Assembly: GCA_964630525.1 (NCBI GenBank)
Contig: CAZVUY010000004.1
Coordinates: forward strand, 11,448-75,447
Source of the DNA: an uncultured Candidatus Saccharibacteria bacterium
GTDB lineage: Bacteria; Patescibacteriota; Minisyncoccia; Phycocordibacterales; WO2-35-19
Length of the DNA: 64,000 nt
Direction: 5' to 3'
The translations under genes and the position numbers were made by a program. The notes below the pieces were generated by a model. The model worked only from the letters and a program-made list of their open reading frames with translations. It made no database searches and was not told the origin of the DNA. The number at the start of each line of letters is the position of its first letter. Positions within the stretch are counted from its first letter, which is position 1. This document shows, piece after piece, positions 6,935 to 64,000 of this stretch.

Positions 6935-7827
6935 TTTTTAAATCTAGCATAAATGAGCGAAGAGAACATGGCGATGAACATCAAGCCTAGAATAATCCAA
7001 AAAGCATAAGGATTGCTCTTGAGTGGGAAATATAAGACACTTAGCCCAAAAATTTGACCAATAATAGAGATAGGGAGAACAATCGACCCGATCACTGTCA
7101 ACTGTTTGGTAGTGTCATTTTGTTTGGTGGAAAGAATCGAGTCATTTGTTGCTCGGAGTTCGCTTACCGTATCGCTCAGGTTGGTCAGCTCGTCTGTCAT
7201 CCTTTGCCAATCTTCAATCAAAGAATCAACTTCTTTCTTAAAGCCAACATCAAATGTATCACCAGCCTCTCCCTTGATTGATAGCAAGACCAACTCATGA
7301 GATCTGATAATTCTTTTGAAATTTAAAATGTTGCGGGATATTAGTGAAATGGTGAAGACCATTGCTTTCTCGTGGCCGGCAAAAATTTTTATTTCAGTTT
7401 CTTTGAGCCAGTCTCTCAAATATTCGATCTCATCAAATAGGAAGCCATAGATTACTTTCATTAGTCCAAAAAAGAGGTGAGATTTTTCGTTTTTCCTCAA
7501 AATCTCGTTGACTTCTATTTGTTTGGCGAAGTGGTGCAGCGCATCGATGCTGTCATAACGGGTGGTGAATAGACTGTCCTTGGTAATTATAAAGTCGATT
7601 TCTTGCTTCGGGTCTTCGTTGTGGTTGTGTCGGAAAAAAGGGATATGGAGCACCGCATAGATACCTTGATCAAAGACGCGAGCATGTTGCTTGGGGGTGG
7701 GGGTCAGGAGATCTTTGACCACCAACGGGTCGAGTTTGTGATCAATGACCAAAAGATCGAGCTCATTCTTACTCGGCGAGCTTATGTCTACCCAAGTCTG
7801 GTCTTTGAATTGTCTATTGGTGATCAT
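6925..7827 (-). CDS. CorA-family divalent cation transporter
   Basis: TWVDISSPS, soluble funnel domain, two C-terminal TM segments; GMN motif degenerate (FGLS). Confidence 0.82.
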   Translation of the reverse strand: MITNRQFKDQTWVDISSPSKNELDLLVIDHKLDPLVVKDLLTPTPKQHARVFDQGIYAVLHIPFFRHNHNEDPKQEIDFIITKDSLFTTRYDSIDALHHFAKQIEVNEILRKNEKSHLFFGLMKVIYGFLFDEIEYLRDWLKETEIKIFAGHEKAMVFTISLISRNILNFKRIIRSHELVLLSIKGEAGDTFDVGFKKEVDSLIEDWQRMTDELTNLSDTVSELRATNDSILSTKQNDTTKQLTVIGSIVLPISIIGQIFGLSVLYFPLKSNPYAFWIILGLMFIAMFSSLIYARFKKWI

Positions 7828-7888: not shown

Positions 7889-9103
7889 ATGAACACCGAA
7901 AGATATACTCAAGTCTGGATTTCTTTGTTTATAATTATTCTCGTCTTTACGGCTGGTTTTTATGCCGGCAAAAAGGACTCGGTAGATCTCGGCTCACTGC
8001 AGGTTTTGAACGCCACCACGACCGACAGTGTCGACCTCGAGCCTTTTTGGAAAGCTTGGTCGGTGCTGGAAGAAAGGTTTTCACCAGCTTCTTCGACCAC
8101 TCCGAAGGTGGCCAATCAAGATAAGATTTGGGGTGCGATCCAAGGTCTCGCCGCTTCCTACAATGATCCTTATACCGTCTTTTTCCCGCCAGTTGAATCT
8201 AAAGTGTTTGAAGAAGAGATCAGTGGCAGCTTTGGTGGGGTAGGTATGGAGATTGGTCTGACCGATGGGGTGCTGACCGTGATCGCTCCCCTCAAGGGTA
8301 CCCCAGCCTATCGGGCTGGCGTACTTTCGGGTGATAAAATTGTAGCCATCGATGACAAACCAGCTCTCAAGATGAGTACCGATGAGGCCATTAAGTTGAT
8401 TCGTGGCGAGATTGGTACAAAAGTTTCCATTACTTTTATTCGCGACGGAGTGGATGAGCCGATCATTAAAACTATCGAAAGAGATGCGATCGAGATACCG
8501 ACAGTCAGCACCAAATTGTTGCCAGAGAATGTGTTTTTGATCGAGCTCTATAATTTTTCAGCCACTTCACCGAGTCTTTTCCGGTCCGGCTTGCGTGAGT
8601 TTGTCGAGTCCGGGACTGACAAACTCATTATCGATCTACGCAACAATCCAGGCGGCTACCTCGAGGCGGCTCTTGATATGGCAAGTTGGTTTTTGCCGAC
8701 CGGCAAAGTGGTAGTGACTGAAGATTTTGGTAATGCCGAAGAAGACCGGGTTTATCGTAGCAAAGGCTATGATATTTTTACCGACCAGCTCAAATTGGTG
8801 ATCTTGGTGAACGAAGGCTCGGCTTCTGCCTCGGAAATTTTGGCTGGTGCTCTACGAGAACATGGCAAGGCCACCCTGATCGGCGAGAATACTTTCGGCA
8901 AAGGTTCGGTCCAGGAGCTTTTGCCGATCACGAACGATACTTCTTTAAAAATTACGGTCGCCCATTGGTTTACTCCGCTTGGCAATTCTATTTCTGATGG
9001 CGGTTTGGCCCCGGATATCGAAGTCGAGCTTACTCCAGAGAACACCAAAAATGGTGCCGATCCGCAGCTAGAGAGAGCAGTAAAATATTTGTTAGAGAAA
9101 TAA
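7889..9103 (+). CDS. S41 family C-terminal processing peptidase (CtpA/Prc) with PDZ domain
   Basis: DPYTVF, IDLRNNPGG, SASASEI, TFGKGSVQ. Confidence 0.95.
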   Translation: MNTERYTQVWISLFIIILVFTAGFYAGKKDSVDLGSLQVLNATTTDSVDLEPFWKAWSVLEERFSPASSTTPKVANQDKIWGAIQGLAASYNDPYTVFFPPVESKVFEEEISGSFGGVGMEIGLTDGVLTVIAPLKGTPAYRAGVLSGDKIVAIDDKPALKMSTDEAIKLIRGEIGTKVSITFIRDGVDEPIIKTIERDAIEIPTVSTKLLPENVFLIELYNFSATSPSLFRSGLREFVESGTDKLIIDLRNNPGGYLEAALDMASWFLPTGKVVVTEDFGNAEEDRVYRSKGYDIFTDQLKLVILVNEGSASASEILAGALREHGKATLIGENTFGKGSVQELLPITNDTSLKITVAHWFTPLGNSISDGGLAPDIEVELTPENTKNGADPQLERAVKYLLEK

Positions 9104-59108: not shown

Positions 59109-62100
59109 TTATTCTTGGTTTTTAAGAAGCTCCACATTGAGAGCGAGACCACGCAAATTGCTGATCAAGACGTTGAAGGCGGCCGGCAAATTCTCGCTTC
59201 TCATTCGCTCTCCCTTGATAATGGCGTCGAAAGTGGCGCTGCGACCAGTGATATCATCAGACTTGACGGTCAGCATTTCTCTCAGGGTGTAGGCGGCACC
59301 ATGTCCAAGCAGGGCCCAAACTTCCATTTCACCAAATCGTTGGCCTCCTCCTTGAGCTTTACCTCCAAGTGGCTGCTGGGTAATCAGAGAGTAAGGTCCG
59401 ATCGAACGCATATGGATCTTGTCTTCAACCATGTGGTCGAGCTTGAGCATGTACATGTAGCCGACAGCGGTAGCTTGTTTGAAAGCTTCGCCGGTGCGGC
59501 CATCGTAAAGTTGAATTTTGCCGTTCTCGTTCCAGCCAGCTTTATTCAATTCCTCCTTGATTTCTTTGTCGGTTGCTCCAGCAAAAGGAGGTACGACCGC
59601 TTGGTAGCCGAGAGTTTTGGCCGCCAAACCTAAGTGTAGTTCCAATATTTGACCCAAGTTCATTCGAGACGGCACACCAAGTGGCGTGAGTACCATGTCG
59701 ATCGGAGTACCATCTGCCATGTAAGGCATGTCTTCAATCGGCAGGATTTTTGAAATAACTCCTTTGTTACCGTGGCGACCAGCTAGCTTGTCACCCACGG
59801 AGACGTTGCGGATCTGGGCAATTTCAATATGAATTCTCTTGATGATGCCAGATTCTAGTTTGTCGCCTTTTTCTCTTGAAAATACTTGAATATTGACGAC
59901 TCTCCCCTTCTTACCACCCTCCACTCTCTTAGAAGTGTCCTTGATGTCTCTCGATTTTTCACCGAAGAGTGAACGAAGCAATCTTTCTTCTGGAGTGAGC
60001 TGGGTCTCGCCTTTCGGAGTGATTTTACCAACCAAGATATCACCTGGGTTTACTTCGGCTCCAATGCGGATGATACCGTCCTCAGCCAAGTTTTTCAGTT
60101 TATTTTCGCCGACGTTTGGGATATCGCAGGTGGTGACTTCCGGACCAAGCTTGGTGTCGCGTACGTTGACTACCACCTCATCGATGTGAACAGTCGTGAA
60201 TTTATTTTCTCTGATTAGTCTCTCGGAAAGGATGATGGCGTCTTCATAGTTGGACCCTGACCAAGAAAGGAAGGCGATCAAGATGTTTTGACCGAGTGCC
60301 ATTTCACCATTGACGCTAGTGAGAGTGTCAGCCAAGACATCACCTTTTTTGACGTGATCTCCAATGTTGACGATTGGTCGCTGATGGAAACAGGTAGCGC
60401 TGTTGGTTTTGGCGAAATTGACCAGTTTGTAAGTAGTTTTGTTATTTTTATTGTCAGTTACTTCTATCAAGCTCCCGTCTACTTTTGATACGATCCCGTC
60501 GCTAAGCGAGATGACCAGTCGGCCAGTATCGCGCATCGCCTGACCCTCAATGCCAGTTGCTACCAAAGGAGCTTCCGGCTCCACGCAAGGGGTAGCCTGC
60601 TTCTGCATGTTTGAACCCATGAGAGCGCGGTTTGCGTCATCGTGGTTTAGAAACGGGATCATGGAAGTCGCGATCGAAAAGGCTTGGTTGGTCGCCACGT
60701 CCATGTATTCAACTTCTTTTTTAGCGACCATACCAGGTTTGCCATTGATTCTCGCCTCGACTACCTCTTGGCTGATGTGACCTTTTTCGTCGCGATCGAT
60801 CGCGGCGTGGGCGATGATAAACTTCTCTTCCTCAAGAGCGTTTAGATATTCTATTTCATCGGTCACTACCCCGTTCTTCACTTTGACGTAAGGGGTTTCG
60901 ATCATACCAAATTCGTTGATTCGGGCATAAAGAGACAAGTGCAAAATGAGACCAATGTTTGGACCTTCTGGTGTGTGGATTGGGCAAAGTCGGCCGTAGT
61001 GAGAAGGGTGTACGTCGCGCACTTCGAAACCAGCTCGGCTTCGGTTTAGACCGCCAGGACCGAGAGCGGAGAGTAGACGCAAGTGCTCGATCTCAGCGAG
61101 AGCATTCTCTTGAGACATAAATTGGGAAAGCTGGTTGGTGGTGAAAAATTCTTTGAGTCTGGCCTGCAGCGGTTTTGGGATAATAAACTGTACCGGCAAG
61201 GTGACGTCAGCATCGACGGTCGACATGCGATTTTGCATGTTACGTTTGATCTGAGCCATACCCATGCGAAATTTTTGCTGCAACATTTCACCAACATAAC
61301 GAACGCGGCGGCTGCCGAGGTGGTCGATATCATCTTCGAGAGCGTCGGGGTTGGTGTTGAGAGTGATGATATGGTTGACCACCAAGCGGATATCGTTGAG
61401 ATCAAGAGTGCGTCGATCGGCATCTTTACCTGAAGTTGGCAAACCAAAGCGAGAGTTGAATCGGAAGCGACCAACTTTCTGCAAATCGTATCGCTCTGAT
61501 TCAAAAAGACTCTTGAAAAATTCGCGAGCATTTTCGGCGGTCGCCAAGTCGCCATCGCGCAATCGGCGGTAAATTTCGACGAAAGATTCGTCAGCAGTCT
61601 TCGCGTGATCTTTGGCGAGAGACTTCTCTATATATTCTTTAGCAGCTGGATTGTCTTTAAATAGAGAGAAGATTTCTGAATCAGTCTCGGCACCAAAGGC
61701 TCGGAATAATGAAGTGACCGGAAACTTCCTTTTTCGGTCGATACGGACATAGATGGATTTATCGACATCAGTCTCGATCTCGATCCAAGCACCTCTTGAT
61801 GGGATGATCTTGGCACCAAAGAGGGCCCGGCCTTTTATTTCGGTTTTGGTGAAGAAAACACCAAAGGAACGAGCCAGCTGTGGGACGATCACTCTCTCGA
61901 TACCGCTTACAATGAAAGTACCGTGAGAAGTCATCATCGGAAATTCGGTCATGAAGAGCTCCTGCTCTTTGGAGGTGTTGAGAGTTTTGTTGGTGAGGCG
62001 GACACGGGCTTTGAGCGGGGCTTCATAAGAGAGCTTCTTCTCTTTGGCGTAGTATTCGTCGTATTTTGGTTCCTCGAGTTCAAAACTCAAAAATTCAAAT

Positions 62101-62303
62101 TTGAATTTTTTGCCGGAGAAATCGTTGATGACTGCAAACTCGTCCATCACCTCTTTGACTCCGTGCTCGACTAGCCATTTGAAAGATTCTACTTGGTCTT
62201 TCACCAAGTTAGGCATCTGAGCCAACGGCTTCTTGAATTTACTGAAATATTTTTTGGGCAGTGCTTTGAGCGATCCAATTTTTTCTTTTGTGGCGGCCGT
62301 CAT
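59109..62303 (-). CDS. rpoB: RNA polymerase subunit beta
   Basis: RDVHPSHYGR, GDKLAGRHGNKG, GGQRFGEME. Confidence 0.99.
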   Translation of the reverse strand: MTAATKEKIGSLKALPKKYFSKFKKPLAQMPNLVKDQVESFKWLVEHGVKEVMDEFAVINDFSGKKFKFEFLSFELEEPKYDEYYAKEKKLSYEAPLKARVRLTNKTLNTSKEQELFMTEFPMMTSHGTFIVSGIERVIVPQLARSFGVFFTKTEIKGRALFGAKIIPSRGAWIEIETDVDKSIYVRIDRKRKFPVTSLFRAFGAETDSEIFSLFKDNPAAKEYIEKSLAKDHAKTADESFVEIYRRLRDGDLATAENAREFFKSLFESERYDLQKVGRFRFNSRFGLPTSGKDADRRTLDLNDIRLVVNHIITLNTNPDALEDDIDHLGSRRVRYVGEMLQQKFRMGMAQIKRNMQNRMSTVDADVTLPVQFIIPKPLQARLKEFFTTNQLSQFMSQENALAEIEHLRLLSALGPGGLNRSRAGFEVRDVHPSHYGRLCPIHTPEGPNIGLILHLSLYARINEFGMIETPYVKVKNGVVTDEIEYLNALEEEKFIIAHAAIDRDEKGHISQEVVEARINGKPGMVAKKEVEYMDVATNQAFSIATSMIPFLNHDDANRALMGSNMQKQATPCVEPEAPLVATGIEGQAMRDTGRLVISLSDGIVSKVDGSLIEVTDNKNNKTTYKLVNFAKTNSATCFHQRPIVNIGDHVKKGDVLADTLTSVNGEMALGQNILIAFLSWSGSNYEDAIILSERLIRENKFTTVHIDEVVVNVRDTKLGPEVTTCDIPNVGENKLKNLAEDGIIRIGAEVNPGDILVGKITPKGETQLTPEERLLRSLFGEKSRDIKDTSKRVEGGKKGRVVNIQVFSREKGDKLESGIIKRIHIEIAQIRNVSVGDKLAGRHGNKGVISKILPIEDMPYMADGTPIDMVLTPLGVPSRMNLGQILELHLGLAAKTLGYQAVVPPFAGATDKEIKEELNKAGWNENGKIQLYDGRTGEAFKQATAVGYMYMLKLDHMVEDKIHMRSIGPYSLITQQPLGGKAQGGGQRFGEMEVWALLGHGAAYTLREMLTVKSDDITGRSATFDAIIKGERMRSENLPAAFNVLISNLRGLALNVELLKNQE

Positions 62304-62549
62304 AAAATGATTTTTCTATTAATATTTATAAAAAAGACACAAACACACAAAGACACCCCGATTCAGGGGGCCTACCAAAGCTCTCCTTTTTAACTTTTTA
62401 TTTTGCTATAAGCCAAGCCAGAGAATTTGCCTGTAATCCTCTATTGACCCTGTTAGATAGAAATCCTAGATTTCTTCTAAAATGTTATCAACATTTTGTT
62501 ATCTAACGGGGTTGACAACCACAACTCATCCGTCTCAATAGTAAGTACC

Positions 62550-62578
62550 AGTATATTCCCCCGATCAAATTCTGTCAA
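62550..62578 (-). promoter_or_regulatory. Sigma70-type promoter for the rpoBC operon
   Basis: Minus strand TTGACA-N17-TATACT, about 240 nt upstream of rpoB. Confidence 0.7.
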
Positions 62579-62604
62579 GTTTTGCAATCTTGACTGTGGA
62601 TAAG

Positions 62605-62632
62605 AAAAAAGCCCAAACCGCAAGGTTTGGGC
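62605..62632 (-). terminator. Intrinsic terminator closing the DGQHR-array transcript
   Basis: Minus strand gcccaaacc-ttgc-ggtttgggc-tttttt. Confidence 0.85.
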
Positions 62633-62636
62633 GATG

Positions 62637-62874
62637 ATGGACCAGTTGTCGGGAAGGCCCAAAAGAGCCAATGTATATGTAGGTCCATAATTAATGAGAA
62701 CAGACTATTACGAGGCTTTCACCAGATCTTCCAAAGTTCTCATCAATACCTTAAAGGATAAATTTAAGGGAGCACCAACCGGTCTTTAGGGTTAACCAAA
62801 GTTGACATAGGTGCTCCCTGGGTAGCTAGGACACTCGGGTCAAAGGTTTGTTAACCAGTCGATAGATGGTCCTA
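62637..62874 (-). ncRNA. TIGR-like dual-spacer stem-loop array (4 units)
   Basis: Units at 62827-62874, 62767-62819, 62690-62747, 62637-62688; each is stem-[C/A]C[T/C]-N10-TGG-loop-CCT-N10-TG[G/T]-stem; all 8 spacers exactly 10 nt and all different. Confidence 0.82.
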
Positions 62875-62875
62875 A

Positions 62876-63988
62876 CTAGAGCTTGTGCTTCGACTTCTGA
62901 AAGATCAGAGAGTCAAGTTGCCGAGCGATTTCGGCTGGGCTCGGAAAGATCGCATCTGGTCCACGGAATCTTTTGAAATCCCAAGCGTAGCGTTCAGCGC
63001 AAGATAGCAGACCTTTCACTCGATTTTCTTGCGGCCTAGACAGACCTCCCTGCTTCAGCCACAAAGCCAGAGATTTTTTGAATTGCTGGCCAACGACTGG
63101 TAGCAGGATGAGCGACTTCACCCCCTCTGTTCGCCGCAGAAAGTAGTTTTGGGGATCACTCCATTCCTTTGGCCAAATTTCTTTGGCTGCAGAGATGATT
63201 CGGAAGACAACTTCTTGTTGAACTTCCGCATCCTGTTTTAGGATTACAGAGTGAGCCGAAGATACCACTTTCTTTAACTCACCAAAAATACTACCAACAT
63301 TTATGATGCCGAGAGTGTGTTCGCGGAGCATCACTGCTGGAGGTATAGAAGAGAGCAAGGGCGCAAGGCGCTTGGCGTCTTCTTCTGTCGGATGCTTTCG
63401 CGGAGGTCTTTCCTCAAGGCGGATAAGACCGAAAAGAGGAGAATTAGGGTCGTTAGCAAGCCGTTTCCCCAAGGCATACGCCCTCTCGCTGATGTTGTCA
63501 GGAAAGAGACCAGTCTTGTCTTGCAGTTGTAAGACCAATTGACCGTCAATCTTCAACCGCTTGGTTTGTTGCAAGAACATTCGCACTCTCTGTTCATAAG
63601 AGATGCCGAGAGTTGCGGTAACCTTCAGTTGCCACACGCTCCTCTCTTCTTCAGAGAGGAGGTGGAGCGCAGCAATCCTCTGTTGACCGTCGTCGACCGA
63701 GAGATAGCCGTCCCTATTCCCCATGAGCGTATTCGTGTCTTTATCAACGATCCACTCCCCTTCCAAATTGCCGAGAATTGGTTCGGCGAATGTGGCATGA
63801 GATTGCCTCATTGCGTCGCGGATCTTTACGACTTGCGGATAATGAAGCAATCGCTGAACACCTTTGTGATTCGGGTCTTCGTTAAACCTTTCCACGCGGG
63901 CGATTTCCAAAAGTGTCGAAGCCGATACTACAAACGTGTAGAGTTCCGACCCCGGTTGACCTTCGCGAATGAAGTGGAATTCTCGCAC
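62876..63988 (-). CDS. DGQHR-domain (DndB/ParB-Srx-like) protein; may extend beyond the window
   Basis: GVQRLL and LSVDDGQQRIAAL motifs; the frame stays open to the window edge upstream of GTG 63988. Confidence 0.8.
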   Translation of the reverse strand: MREFHFIREGQPGSELYTFVVSASTLLEIARVERFNEDPNHKGVQRLLHYPQVVKIRDAMRQSHATFAEPILGNLEGEWIVDKDTNTLMGNRDGYLSVDDGQQRIAALHLLSEEERSVWQLKVTATLGISYEQRVRMFLQQTKRLKIDGQLVLQLQDKTGLFPDNISERAYALGKRLANDPNSPLFGLIRLEERPPRKHPTEEDAKRLAPLLSSIPPAVMLREHTLGIINVGSIFGELKKVVSSAHSVILKQDAEVQQEVVFRIISAAKEIWPKEWSDPQNYFLRRTEGVKSLILLPVVGQQFKKSLALWLKQGGLSRPQENRVKGLLSCAERYAWDFKRFRGPDAIFPSPAEIARQLDSLIFQKSKHKL

Positions 63989-64000
63989 TTCTTTGTCTCC

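What the first reader, a model, noticed from the sequence alone, without database searches (positions are those of the whole stretch)
62637..62874. TIGR-like tandem-spacer guide-RNA array made of four stem-loops
Seen (minus strand, 5'->3'): U1 TAGG-ACC-atctatcgac-TGG-ttaacaaa-CCT-ttgacccgag-TGT-CCTA; U2 AGGGAGCA-CCT-atgtcaactt-TGG-ttaac-CCT-aaagaccggt-TGG-TGCTCCCT; U3 ATTGATGAGA-ACT-ttggaagatc-TGG-tgaaag-CCT-cgtaatagtc-TGT-TCTCATTAAT; U4 ATGGA-CCT-acatatacat-TGG-ctcttttggg-CCT-tcccgacaac-TGG-TCCAT. The outer stems differ in sequence but always pair, so standard repeat/CRISPR finders would likely miss it. The short CC(T) and TG motifs and the 10-nt spacing are essentially invariant. The last spacer base is a pyrimidine in 7 of 8 spacers, so they can also be read as 9 nt + YTG. 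The array begins 1 nt after a stop codon and ends at a strong terminator. Established: TIGR-Tas systems of phages and parasitic/CPR bacteria use units with two ~9-nt spacers framed by box C/D-like CC(A)/TG motifs, bound by Nop-domain Tas proteins. Inference: this encodes four dual-spacer guide RNAs for an RNA-guided DNA-binding system, in a CCT-N10-TG variant.
Basis: partly seen in the sequence, partly recalled or inferred. Interest (0 to 1): 0.95.

Follow-up and report, generated by a model that had tools for sequence, protein, structure and literature searches.

The report
Guide-RNA array of a TIGR-Tas system

Summary
Four hairpins at window 62637-62878 (minus strand) each carry two 10-nt variable stretches framed by N-C-U ... 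U-G-N' motifs. They start at the stop codon of a gene and end at an intrinsic terminator. The interpretation also holds. 2 kb upstream, 887 nt beyond the window end, lies a 436-aa gene whose closest solved relative is TIGR-TasR (profile E 7.8e-34; Foldseek top hit). It is followed by nine more units of the same anatomy, a terminator, a DGQHR (DndB/DpdB-like, ParB/Srx-fold) gene, and then the four reported units. The strict motif occurs three times in the 727-kb genome, all in this locus. Across eight related loci a motif-light scan finds 60 units on the tas strand and none on the other. Stem-loop TIGR arrays in CPR bacteria are published (Faure 2025; Xu 2026 preprint), so this is a new member of a known kind, and "CCT-N10-TG" is the known CUU/UG box with 9-10-nt spacers. 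Three things may be new: the DGQHR gene embedded between sub-arrays (4 of 5 informative loci), a retained D/E/D RuvC triad, and the locus being a 5-kb island beside rpoB. No expression data and no targets were obtained.

The parts
   Evidence: MFE -19.2, z -4.2; 3 motif mismatches to CCT/TGG, one of them a real deviation of box C (C-C for C-U)
62767..62819 (-). tigRNA unit B2 (U2): 8-bp stem, CCT-N10-TGG, 5-nt loop, CCT-N10-TGG
   Evidence: strict motif hit; z -4.2; one loop base differs in a groundwater contig (window 62791)
62690..62747 (-). tigRNA unit B3 (U3): 10-bp stem, ACT-N10-TGG, 6-nt loop, CCT-N10-TGT
   Evidence: z -2.7; inverted repeat I1
62637..62688 (-). tigRNA unit B4 (U4): 5-bp stem, CCT-N10-TGG, 10-nt loop forming a small hairpin, CCT-N10-TGG
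   Evidence: strict motif hit; z -3.5
62601..62632 (-). intrinsic terminator closing sub-array B; also the edge of the inserted island
   Evidence: I3; homology to the GH15-rpoB spacer of same-family genomes resumes at its T-run
62876..63988 (-). DGQHR-domain gene (370 aa, GTG start; ParB/Srx-fold N-terminal domain) whose 3' untranslated region is sub-array B
   Evidence: NCBIfam TIGR03187 65.3 bits, cut-off 58.85; PADLOC DpdB E 6e-11; model pLDDT 83, best structural matches ParB-like PadC Z 7.7, KorB 6.3, sulfiredoxin 6.1; orthologues in the same position in L002, L026, L028
62550..62578 (-). context only: promoter-like site (TTGACA-17-TATACT) of rpoB, conserved in same-family genomes; not part of the system

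Best explanation
The four stem-loops are the distal sub-array (units 10-13 of 13) of a stem-loop TIGR-Tas locus in a CPR (Patescibacteria/Paceibacteria-like) bacterium. On the minus strand the locus reads: promoter-like site, tasR (436 aa, outside the window), nine units starting at its stop codon, terminator, DGQHR gene, the four units starting at its stop codon, terminator. Shown: the anatomy, its restriction to this locus, the TasR identity of the neighbouring protein, and conservation of the whole arrangement in related loci. Inferred from published TIGR-Tas work: the units are transcribed as the 3' ends of the tasR and DGQHR messages and cut into roughly 45-58-nt tigRNAs. Each tigRNA is held by a TasR dimer through the pseudo-symmetric N-C-U(U)...U-G-N' boxes, with the box C cytosine pairing with the box D guanine. 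The dimer is guided to an 18-20-bp DNA site, spacer A pairing with one strand and spacer B with the adjoining stretch of the other. Whether this TasR cuts DNA or only binds it (repression) is open. Its RuvC-like domain keeps acidic residues at the three canonical positions.
For: Anatomy and non-randomness. Same anatomy directly after the tas stop codon, outside the window: giving 13 units in all. Protein: 9mty_A (TIGR-TasR) at phmmer E 5.7e-10 and profile E 7.8e-34, against IS621 at 6e-4. NCBIfam NF052498 TIGR_Tas_endo E 2.1e-25, 90 bits. AF2 model pLDDT 82.6 with Foldseek rank 1-2 = 9mty (E 2e-11, TM 0.68 on target), then IS621 and TasH. Comparative: a motif-light scan of the own locus plus 7 related loci (48,284 nt per strand) gives 60 units on the tas strand and 0 on the other. 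The inner box D3:C1 pair, not imposed by the scan, pairs in 56 of 60 units with five pair types. Spacer positions 2-10 show no conserved base. Synteny tas - units - DGQHR - units holds in 4 of 5 loci with at least 2 kb downstream of tas. Host: nearest named rpoB relatives (84-89%) are Paceibacterota, Zambryskibacteria and Parcubacteria. The genome is 727 kb and 100% complete, the lineage in which chromosomal stem-loop TIGR arrays are reported. RuvC triad: D6 in 11 of 11 close relatives that have the N-terminus, E76 in 10 of 12, D105 in 12 of 12, sitting at the end of strand 1, the end of strand 4 and in the helix after strand 5 of the model.
Against: There is no evidence of transcription or processing of the array. 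The only RNA run holding part of the locus covers just the 5' part of tas. No DNA target was found: in the own genome no half-site pair has fewer than 2 mismatches of 20, and the two plausible geometries are not enriched over control arrangements. The Tas protein scores 90 bits, under the 100-bit curated cut-off of the NCBIfam equivalog, and the Pfam Nop model finds nothing in the genome. A strong terminator separates sub-array A from the DGQHR gene, and the simple promoter scan finds no promoter for that gene, so how sub-array B is transcribed is not shown. U1 has C-C instead of C-U in its first box. E76 is replaced (A, G) in 2 of 12 close relatives, which weakens the case for an active nuclease.
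Confidence: 0.88

Rival explanations
1. The four units are a decayed or orphaned remnant of the array, cut off from tas by the DGQHR gene and a terminator. They would no longer be expressed or loaded and would serve at most as a stabilising 3' end of the DGQHR message.
For: A strong terminator lies between sub-array A and the DGQHR gene, and no promoter was predicted for that gene. U1 deviates in box C. There are no expression data.
Against: Two of the four units match the strict motif perfectly, as well as any unit beside tas. Units downstream of the DGQHR gene are kept in L002, L026 and L028, with different spacers and intact boxes and stems. The units are nearly unchanged in an independent groundwater sample: 3 differences in 2103 nt, one of them in a loop.
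Confidence: 0.07
2. The tasR-like gene is an IS110-type RNA-guided recombinase and the hairpins are bridge-RNA-like guides that move the 5-kb island.
For: The locus is an insertion relative to same-family genomes. A relative carries the module at another site, beside trmD. IS621 is the second-best structural match.
Against: The family profile matches TasR at E 7.8e-34 against IS621 at 6e-4. NCBIfam IS110 scores 19.8 bits against a 140-bit cut-off, and Pfam Transposase_20 only E 0.11. There are 13 tandem dual-spacer units rather than one two-loop bridge RNA. No spacer pair matches the own genome, including the island borders.
Confidence: 0.03
3. The hairpins are generic palindromic elements (REP-like or terminator clusters) unrelated to any guide function.
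For: They lie in an intergenic 3' region and end in a terminator.
Against: Fixed 10-nt spacing between invariant C-U and U-G dinucleotides on both sides. The motif is confined to this locus in the genome and shows strict strand bias with tas in eight loci, 60 to 0. No Rfam family reaches its gathering score.
Confidence: 0.02

Closest known systems
Stem-loop TIGR-Tas systems of CPR bacteria (CsTasR, PateTasR; Xu et al. 2026 bioRxiv 10.64898/2026.09.09.750476, Results read; Faure et al. 2025 Science, PMC12045711, passages read)
   Same: Tandem hairpin units with variable palindromic stems; two spacers of about 10 nt framed by pseudo-symmetric CUU/UG-type boxes; units before and after tas and starting at its stop codon; RuvC-plus-Nop-like Tas protein; CPR host; short C-terminal tail of Tas.
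   Different: The Tas protein is only remotely related to the 515-548-aa relatives in my search (24-29% identity). That those relatives belong to the published CsTasR clade is my guess from their length. It keeps D/E/D at the RuvC positions, where the published CPR TasRs are described as dead. The first spacer base is U in only about 5 of 12 own units, against 42 of 60 across all units scanned, own ones included. A DGQHR gene sits between the sub-arrays.
TIGR-TasA operons with tasParB (Faure et al. 2025, Discussion passage and Methods section 44 read; fig. S14 not seen)
   Same: [quoted passage not shown]
   Different: Those are described as nuclease-less TasA with dual-repeat arrays, and a ParB-like CTPase-type partner predicted to dimerise by its C-terminus. 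Here a RuvC-bearing Tas with stem-loop units is paired with a DGQHR (DndB/DpdB-type) protein. Whether TasParB includes DGQHR proteins could not be checked, because the supplements were closed. The paper's reference list holds a dnd paper and a ParB/Srx paper that I did not find cited in the main text.
IS110/IS621 bridge RNA recombinases
   Same: RuvC-like plus Nop-like/Transposase_20-like architecture; guide segments displayed in internal loops of hairpins; second-best structural match.
   Different: One bridge RNA with two loops per element rather than a 13-unit array; family scores far below cut-off.
Archaeal/eukaryotic box C/D sRNPs (Nop5/Nop56/58)
   Same: Two guide segments framed by box C and box D-like motifs and bound by a dimeric coiled-coil Nop-domain protein. 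This analogy is the one drawn in Faure 2025.
   Different: No Pfam Nop match and no snoRNA family among the Rfam matches. K-turn boxes (RUGAUGA/CUGA) and L7Ae or fibrillarin partners were not searched for. The Foldseek match to Nop5 is only E 0.05.
DndB / DpdB DGQHR proteins of DNA phosphorothioation and 7-deazaguanine systems
   Same: DGQHR domain above the curated cut-off; ParB/Srx-like N-terminal fold.
   Different: DpdB and DndB equivalog scores are far below cut-off (37 against 300; 19 against 450). No DndC was found in the genome and no dnd or dpd genes among the ten neighbouring ORFs scanned. The conserved neighbour is tas.

Membership tests
TIGR-Tas system, stem-loop array type | A Tas protein (coiled-coil plus Nop-like RNA-binding domain related to the IS110 C-terminal domain) encoded beside the array | tested here: met
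   9mty_A TasR E 5.7e-10 and 7.8e-34 with the family profile; Foldseek top hit 9mty, TM 0.68 on target; gene 2 kb upstream on the same strand
TIGR-Tas system, stem-loop array type | [quoted passage not shown] | tested here: met
   All 4 units, and 13 in the locus, have N-C-U/N10/U-G-N' twice; genome-wide the strict motif occurs only in this locus
TIGR-Tas system, stem-loop array type | Variable but always palindromic flanks instead of conserved edge repeats; no direct repeats | tested here: met
   Outer stems of 5-10 bp with different sequences; TRF finds nothing; stems of 5-13 bp in 60 units of 8 loci
TIGR-Tas system, stem-loop array type | Box C cytosine pairs with box D guanine; the neighbouring pair covaries; the two halves are pseudo-symmetric | tested here: met
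   Inner D3:C1 pairs in 56 of 60 units with G:C, U:A, A:U, G:U and C:G; outer pair is A:U 42, C:G 12, U:A 4, U:G 2, though pairing there was imposed by the scan
TIGR-Tas system, stem-loop array type | Units on the tas strand, upstream and/or downstream of tas | tested here: met
   60 units on the tas strand, 0 on the opposite strand in 8 loci
TIGR-Tas system, stem-loop array type | Stem-loop class Tas lacks the long C-terminal Y/H processing loop | tested here: inconclusive
   The model's last helix ends at residue 424 of 436, leaving a 12-residue tail. No residue-level alignment to SpTasH was made.
TIGR-Tas system, stem-loop array type | Array transcribed and processed into unit-length tigRNAs bound by Tas | not testable with these tools
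   One RNA run holds only 326 nt of tas, as contigs
TIGR-Tas system, stem-loop array type | DNA targets matching spacer A on one strand and spacer B on the adjoining part of the other | tested here: inconclusive
   Own genome only: no pair with fewer than 2 mismatches of 20 and no excess over control arrangements. Foreign DNA was not searched.
NCBIfam NF052498 TIGR_Tas_endo (equivalog) | Score at or above the curated cut-off of 100 bits | tested here: not met
   90 bits, E 2.1e-25: a relative, not an equivalog by NCBI's threshold
IS110 family RNA-guided transposase | NF033542 at or above 140 bits, or Pfam Transposase_20 at or above 21.3 bits | tested here: not met
   19.8 bits; 13.4 bits
CRISPR array | Conserved direct repeats separating spacers | tested here: not met
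DGQHR domain proteins (TIGR03187), for the embedded gene | Score at or above the 58.85-bit cut-off | tested here: met
   65.3 bits. Pfam DndB scores 24.5 bits, under its 29.1 cut-off, for the own protein; 14 of 15 clade members match at E <= 0.01.
DpdB / DndB equivalogs | Equivalog score and dpd/dnd partner genes | tested here: not met
   37 bits against 300 and 19 against 450; no DndC in the genome

The most novel reading that the evidence does not exclude
This clade is a two-protein TIGR system not yet described. It would pair a compact stem-loop TasR that keeps an intact RuvC D/E/D triad (so may cut DNA, unlike the published dead CPR TasRs) with a dedicated DGQHR/ParB-fold partner whose own message carries guide units. 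The partner would act at the DNA sites that the tigRNAs specify, for example as an NTP-dependent clamp, repressor or modifier. That would make it an RNA-guided way of loading a ParB-like protein. The module moves as an island between CPR lineages.
Probability: 0.3. Interest if true: 0.75.

Novelty: new member of a known kind. Interest (0 to 1): 0.45.

Why it matters
The result shows that a repeat-free guide-RNA array can be recognised from raw sequence alone, and that the inference can be confirmed by finding its effector outside the window. The array itself adds one more member to the 2,559 stem-loop TIGR arrays already catalogued. The natural role of TIGR-Tas is still open, though. A conserved accessory gene wedged between sub-arrays (DGQHR, ParB/Srx fold) gives a concrete handle for experiments. 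A 436-aa stem-loop TasR with a possibly intact nuclease site would also interest those developing compact genome-editing tools.

Tried and rejected
Rfam scan of 60000-64000 at E <= 10: six weak matches, all far under their gathering scores.

Pfam Nop (PF01798) in the whole genome: no match. This was misleading, because the Tas domain is too divergent for that model.

The search for related loci with the 28-sequence alignment gave an error for lack of a conserved stretch. I repeated it with the 12 closest sequences.

Self-target search: 13 units, two plausible geometries and two control arrangements, gaps 0-3, 10+10 and 9+9 nt. No hit had 0-1 mismatch. The counts at up to 3 mismatches were alike across arrangements (9+9: 32 and 38 against 45 and 36).

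Complex prediction TasR + DGQHR: no verdict, score 0.00. This is neither for nor against binding.

Sequencing runs: the one RNA run covers only L001 4375-4700 (tas 5' part) as contigs, so it says nothing on the array. The sludge runs cover only parts of the locus.

Viral contigs: no relative of the Tas clade or the DGQHR clade.

DGQHR clade in 400 other genomes sampled from the phylum: one, which by its coordinates is the L002 contig again.

DndC in the own genome: none.

The three small ORFs of the island (115, 122 and 128 aa; no Pfam family, or only a sub-threshold GreA-like hit) have no counterpart in the other 15 loci searched, so I do not count them as part of the system.

The search of earlier findings was not open.

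Targets in foreign DNA (phage, plasmid or host sequences) were not searched, so what the spacers recognise is left open.

Full report
OBSERVATION. On the minus strand of window 62601-62878 the sequence reads, after the stop codon TAG (62878-62876) of an ORF, four hairpins and then an intrinsic terminator. Each hairpin has an outer stem of 5-10 bp and different sequence. It then carries N-C-T (C-C in U1), ten variable bases, T-G-G, a loop of 5-10 nt, C-C-T, ten variable bases, T-G-N', and the other arm of the stem. The region folds exactly this way: MFE -96.8 kcal/mol against -67.6 +/- 5.1 in 200 dinucleotide shuffles, z -5.8. Each unit alone also folds this way. Tandem Repeats Finder reports nothing. 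The repeat tool sees only the four outer stems and the terminator, as inverted repeats. A scan of the whole 727-kb genome on both strands for CCT-N10-TGG-loop-CCT-N10-TGG with a flanking stem of at least 4 bp gives 3 hits, all in one locus. With up to 1 mismatch it gives 9 hits, 7 in the locus. With up to 2 mismatches it gives 26 hits, 12 in the 2.3-kb locus and 14 elsewhere.

WHAT LIES AROUND IT. The window is G000:C4:11448-75447, and the contig runs on for another 17.8 kb. The ORF ending at 62876 is a 370-aa DGQHR-domain protein (window 62876-63988). It scores 65.3 bits on NCBIfam TIGR03187 (cut-off 58.85), is DpdB-like in PADLOC, and falls just under threshold for Pfam DndB. Downstream of the array are rpoB and rpoC.

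Beyond the window end, on the same strand, the order is as follows:
- a promoter-like site;
- a 436-aa ORF (P0001, C4:76334-77644);
- nine further units of the same anatomy, beginning at its stop codon (window-equivalent 64229-64893);
- a strong terminator, followed by the DGQHR gene.

One of the nine units has a perfect core motif but a mismatch at the base of its stem. The locus thus holds 13 dual-spacer units in two sub-arrays. The finding is the distal one.

THE PROTEIN. P0001 has no Pfam family above threshold; Transposase_20 reaches only E 0.11. It does match the solved TIGR-TasR (9mty_A) at E 5.7e-10, and at 7.8e-34 with a profile of 28 relatives. The next match is the IS621 recombinase, at 6e-4. 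NCBIfam's 'TIGR-Tas system RNA-guided endonuclease' model gives E 2.1e-25, 90 bits against a cut-off of 100. An AlphaFold2 model (pLDDT 82.6) has an N-terminal RNase-H-like domain, a long coiled coil and a helical C-terminal domain. Its best Foldseek hits are 9mty (E 2e-11, TM 0.68 on the target), then IS621, then TasH.

In the 12 closest relatives (41-73% identity) the acidic residues at the end of strand 1 (D6), the end of strand 4 (E76) and in the helix after strand 5 (D105) are kept. The counts are 11 of 11 with an N-terminus, 10 of 12, and 12 of 12. More remote relatives of 515-548 aa have A, C, T or R at the first position. That these are the catalytic positions is my inference from fold topology and from the published D11A mutant of TaTasR (Faure 2025, passage read). 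It was not checked by superposition.

COMPARATIVE EVIDENCE. Relatives of P0001 occur in 12 of 200 other genomes sampled from the same order and in neither of the 2 same-family genomes. Close relatives (53-64%) were fetched from one species-representative genome (L002, titled an uncultured Saccharibacteria MAG) and seven metagenome contigs. I then ran a scan that fixes only C-U and U-G on both halves (at most 1 mismatch of 8), 10-nt spacers and a stem of 5 or more pairs. It found 60 units on the tas strand and none on the opposite strand in 48,284 nt per strand. The set was the own locus plus 7 loci; L029 was left out as a duplicate of L025. The pair next to the inner boxes, which the scan does not impose, is a standard pair in 56 of 60 units with five pair types. 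The outer one is A:U 42, C:G 12, U:A 4, U:G 2. The first spacer base is U in 42 of 60 units on both sides, so box C reads CUU followed by 9 variable bases. The last spacer base shows no pyrimidine bias (34 and 33 of 60). Spacer positions 2-10 show no conserved base, and no spacer is shared between loci in the listings.

COMPARISON WITH PRINT. Faure et al. 2025 (PMC12045711; passages and section 44 read) describe stem-loop TIGR arrays. [quoted passage not shown] The paper also describes a CPR clade of TasR with an inactive RuvC. Xu et al. 2026 (bioRxiv 10.64898/2026.09.09.750476; whole Results read) report the following:
- 2,559 stem-loop arrays, with units upstream, downstream or inside tas;
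- symmetric CUU/UG boxes in PateTasR and two 10-nt spacers in CsTasR, of which 9 pair;
- processing at a CUU motif at the stem base;
- dead TasR and TasA acting as RNA-guided repressors.

Every defining sequence feature I could test is met (see Membership tests). The array is therefore a new member of a known kind, and 'CCT-N10-TG' is not a new variant.

WHAT MAY BE NEW. (a) The DGQHR gene is embedded among the units. A homologue (49-53% identity) lies downstream of tas, with units on both sides, in the own locus, L002, L026 and L028. That is 4 of the 5 loci with at least 2 kb downstream of tas. L029, with 5 kb on either side, lacks it; four other contigs are too short to tell. Three more pairs are suggested only by equal contig lengths in the two protein searches (4644, 3775 and 33044 nt). 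The more distant Tas-bearing genomes of the order have no such gene, and the two genomes with distant DGQHR homologues (33-35%) have no Tas match. The model of the protein (pLDDT 83) has a ParB/Srx-like N-terminal domain: PadC Z 7.7, KorB 6.3, sulfiredoxin 6.1. These are middling scores but a consistent family.

Faure 2025 reports a 'tasParB' gene operonised with tasA and dual-repeat arrays. No paper in the searchable library combines DGQHR or DndB with TIGR-Tas (71 for TasParB). I could not see the supplements, where this may be covered. A complex prediction gave no verdict.

(b) The retained D/E/D triad contrasts with the published dead CPR TasRs.

(c) The locus is an island. In both same-family genomes a GH15-like gene sits 335 and 236 nt before rpoB, against 5,347 nt here. 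Homology to their spacer resumes exactly at the T-run of the terminator that closes the four units. A relative carries the module beside trmD instead.

WHAT IS NOT SHOWN. Expression, processing and targets are all untested. A near-identical copy of the locus exists in a groundwater sample from another study: a 2103-nt contig with 3 differences, one in the loop of U2. The only RNA run covers part of tas alone. No spacer pair matches the own genome better than control arrangements. Foreign DNA was not searched.

VERDICT. The system is of a known kind. Interest is moderate and comes from the conserved DGQHR partner and the possibly active nuclease.

Noticed in passing
G000:C4 about 74058-79096 (window 62611 to window-equivalent 67649): The whole TIGR-Tas/DGQHR locus, plus three small ORFs of 115, 122 and 128 aa without a family, is a ~5-kb insertion between a GH15-like gene and rpoB, relative to the two same-family genomes. 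The rpoB promoter-like region (TTGACA-17-TATACT) is conserved and starts right after the array's terminator.
   Followed up: yes
L027:157-2192: In a metagenome relative the tas module, with three units upstream of tas, lies directly beside a trmD gene 69% identical to the own trmD. That is a different insertion site from the own genome.
   Followed up: partly
L001:3020-3068 (minus; window-equivalent 64572-64620), inside sub-array A: A long, almost perfect hairpin of about 20 bp sits where a unit would be expected. Its outer stem resembles unit stems, but the two 'spacer' stretches are complementary to each other. A shorter hairpin follows it. It could be a degenerate unit or a processing element; this is unexplained.
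   Followed up: no
L002:5700-5770, 7299-7365, 8910-8982: In the Saccharibacteria-labelled relative, each of three sub-arrays begins with a unit whose long outer stem and following 8 nt are nearly identical in all three copies while the spacers differ. One copy overlaps the tas stop codon. U1 of the window has a similar stem core.
   Followed up: partly
G000:C4:76334-77644 (outside the window): The protein on record for this gene is 379 aa, starting at an internal Met. Relatives align from residue 1-3 of the 436-aa GTG-start reading, which also supplies the first RuvC strand with D6. The recorded start is therefore probably too short.
   Followed up: partly
G000 contigs C6, C7, C9: Three small contigs (5.8, 4.4 and 1.1 kb) have G+C of 0.50-0.62 against 0.42-0.44 for the large contigs.
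   Followed up: no
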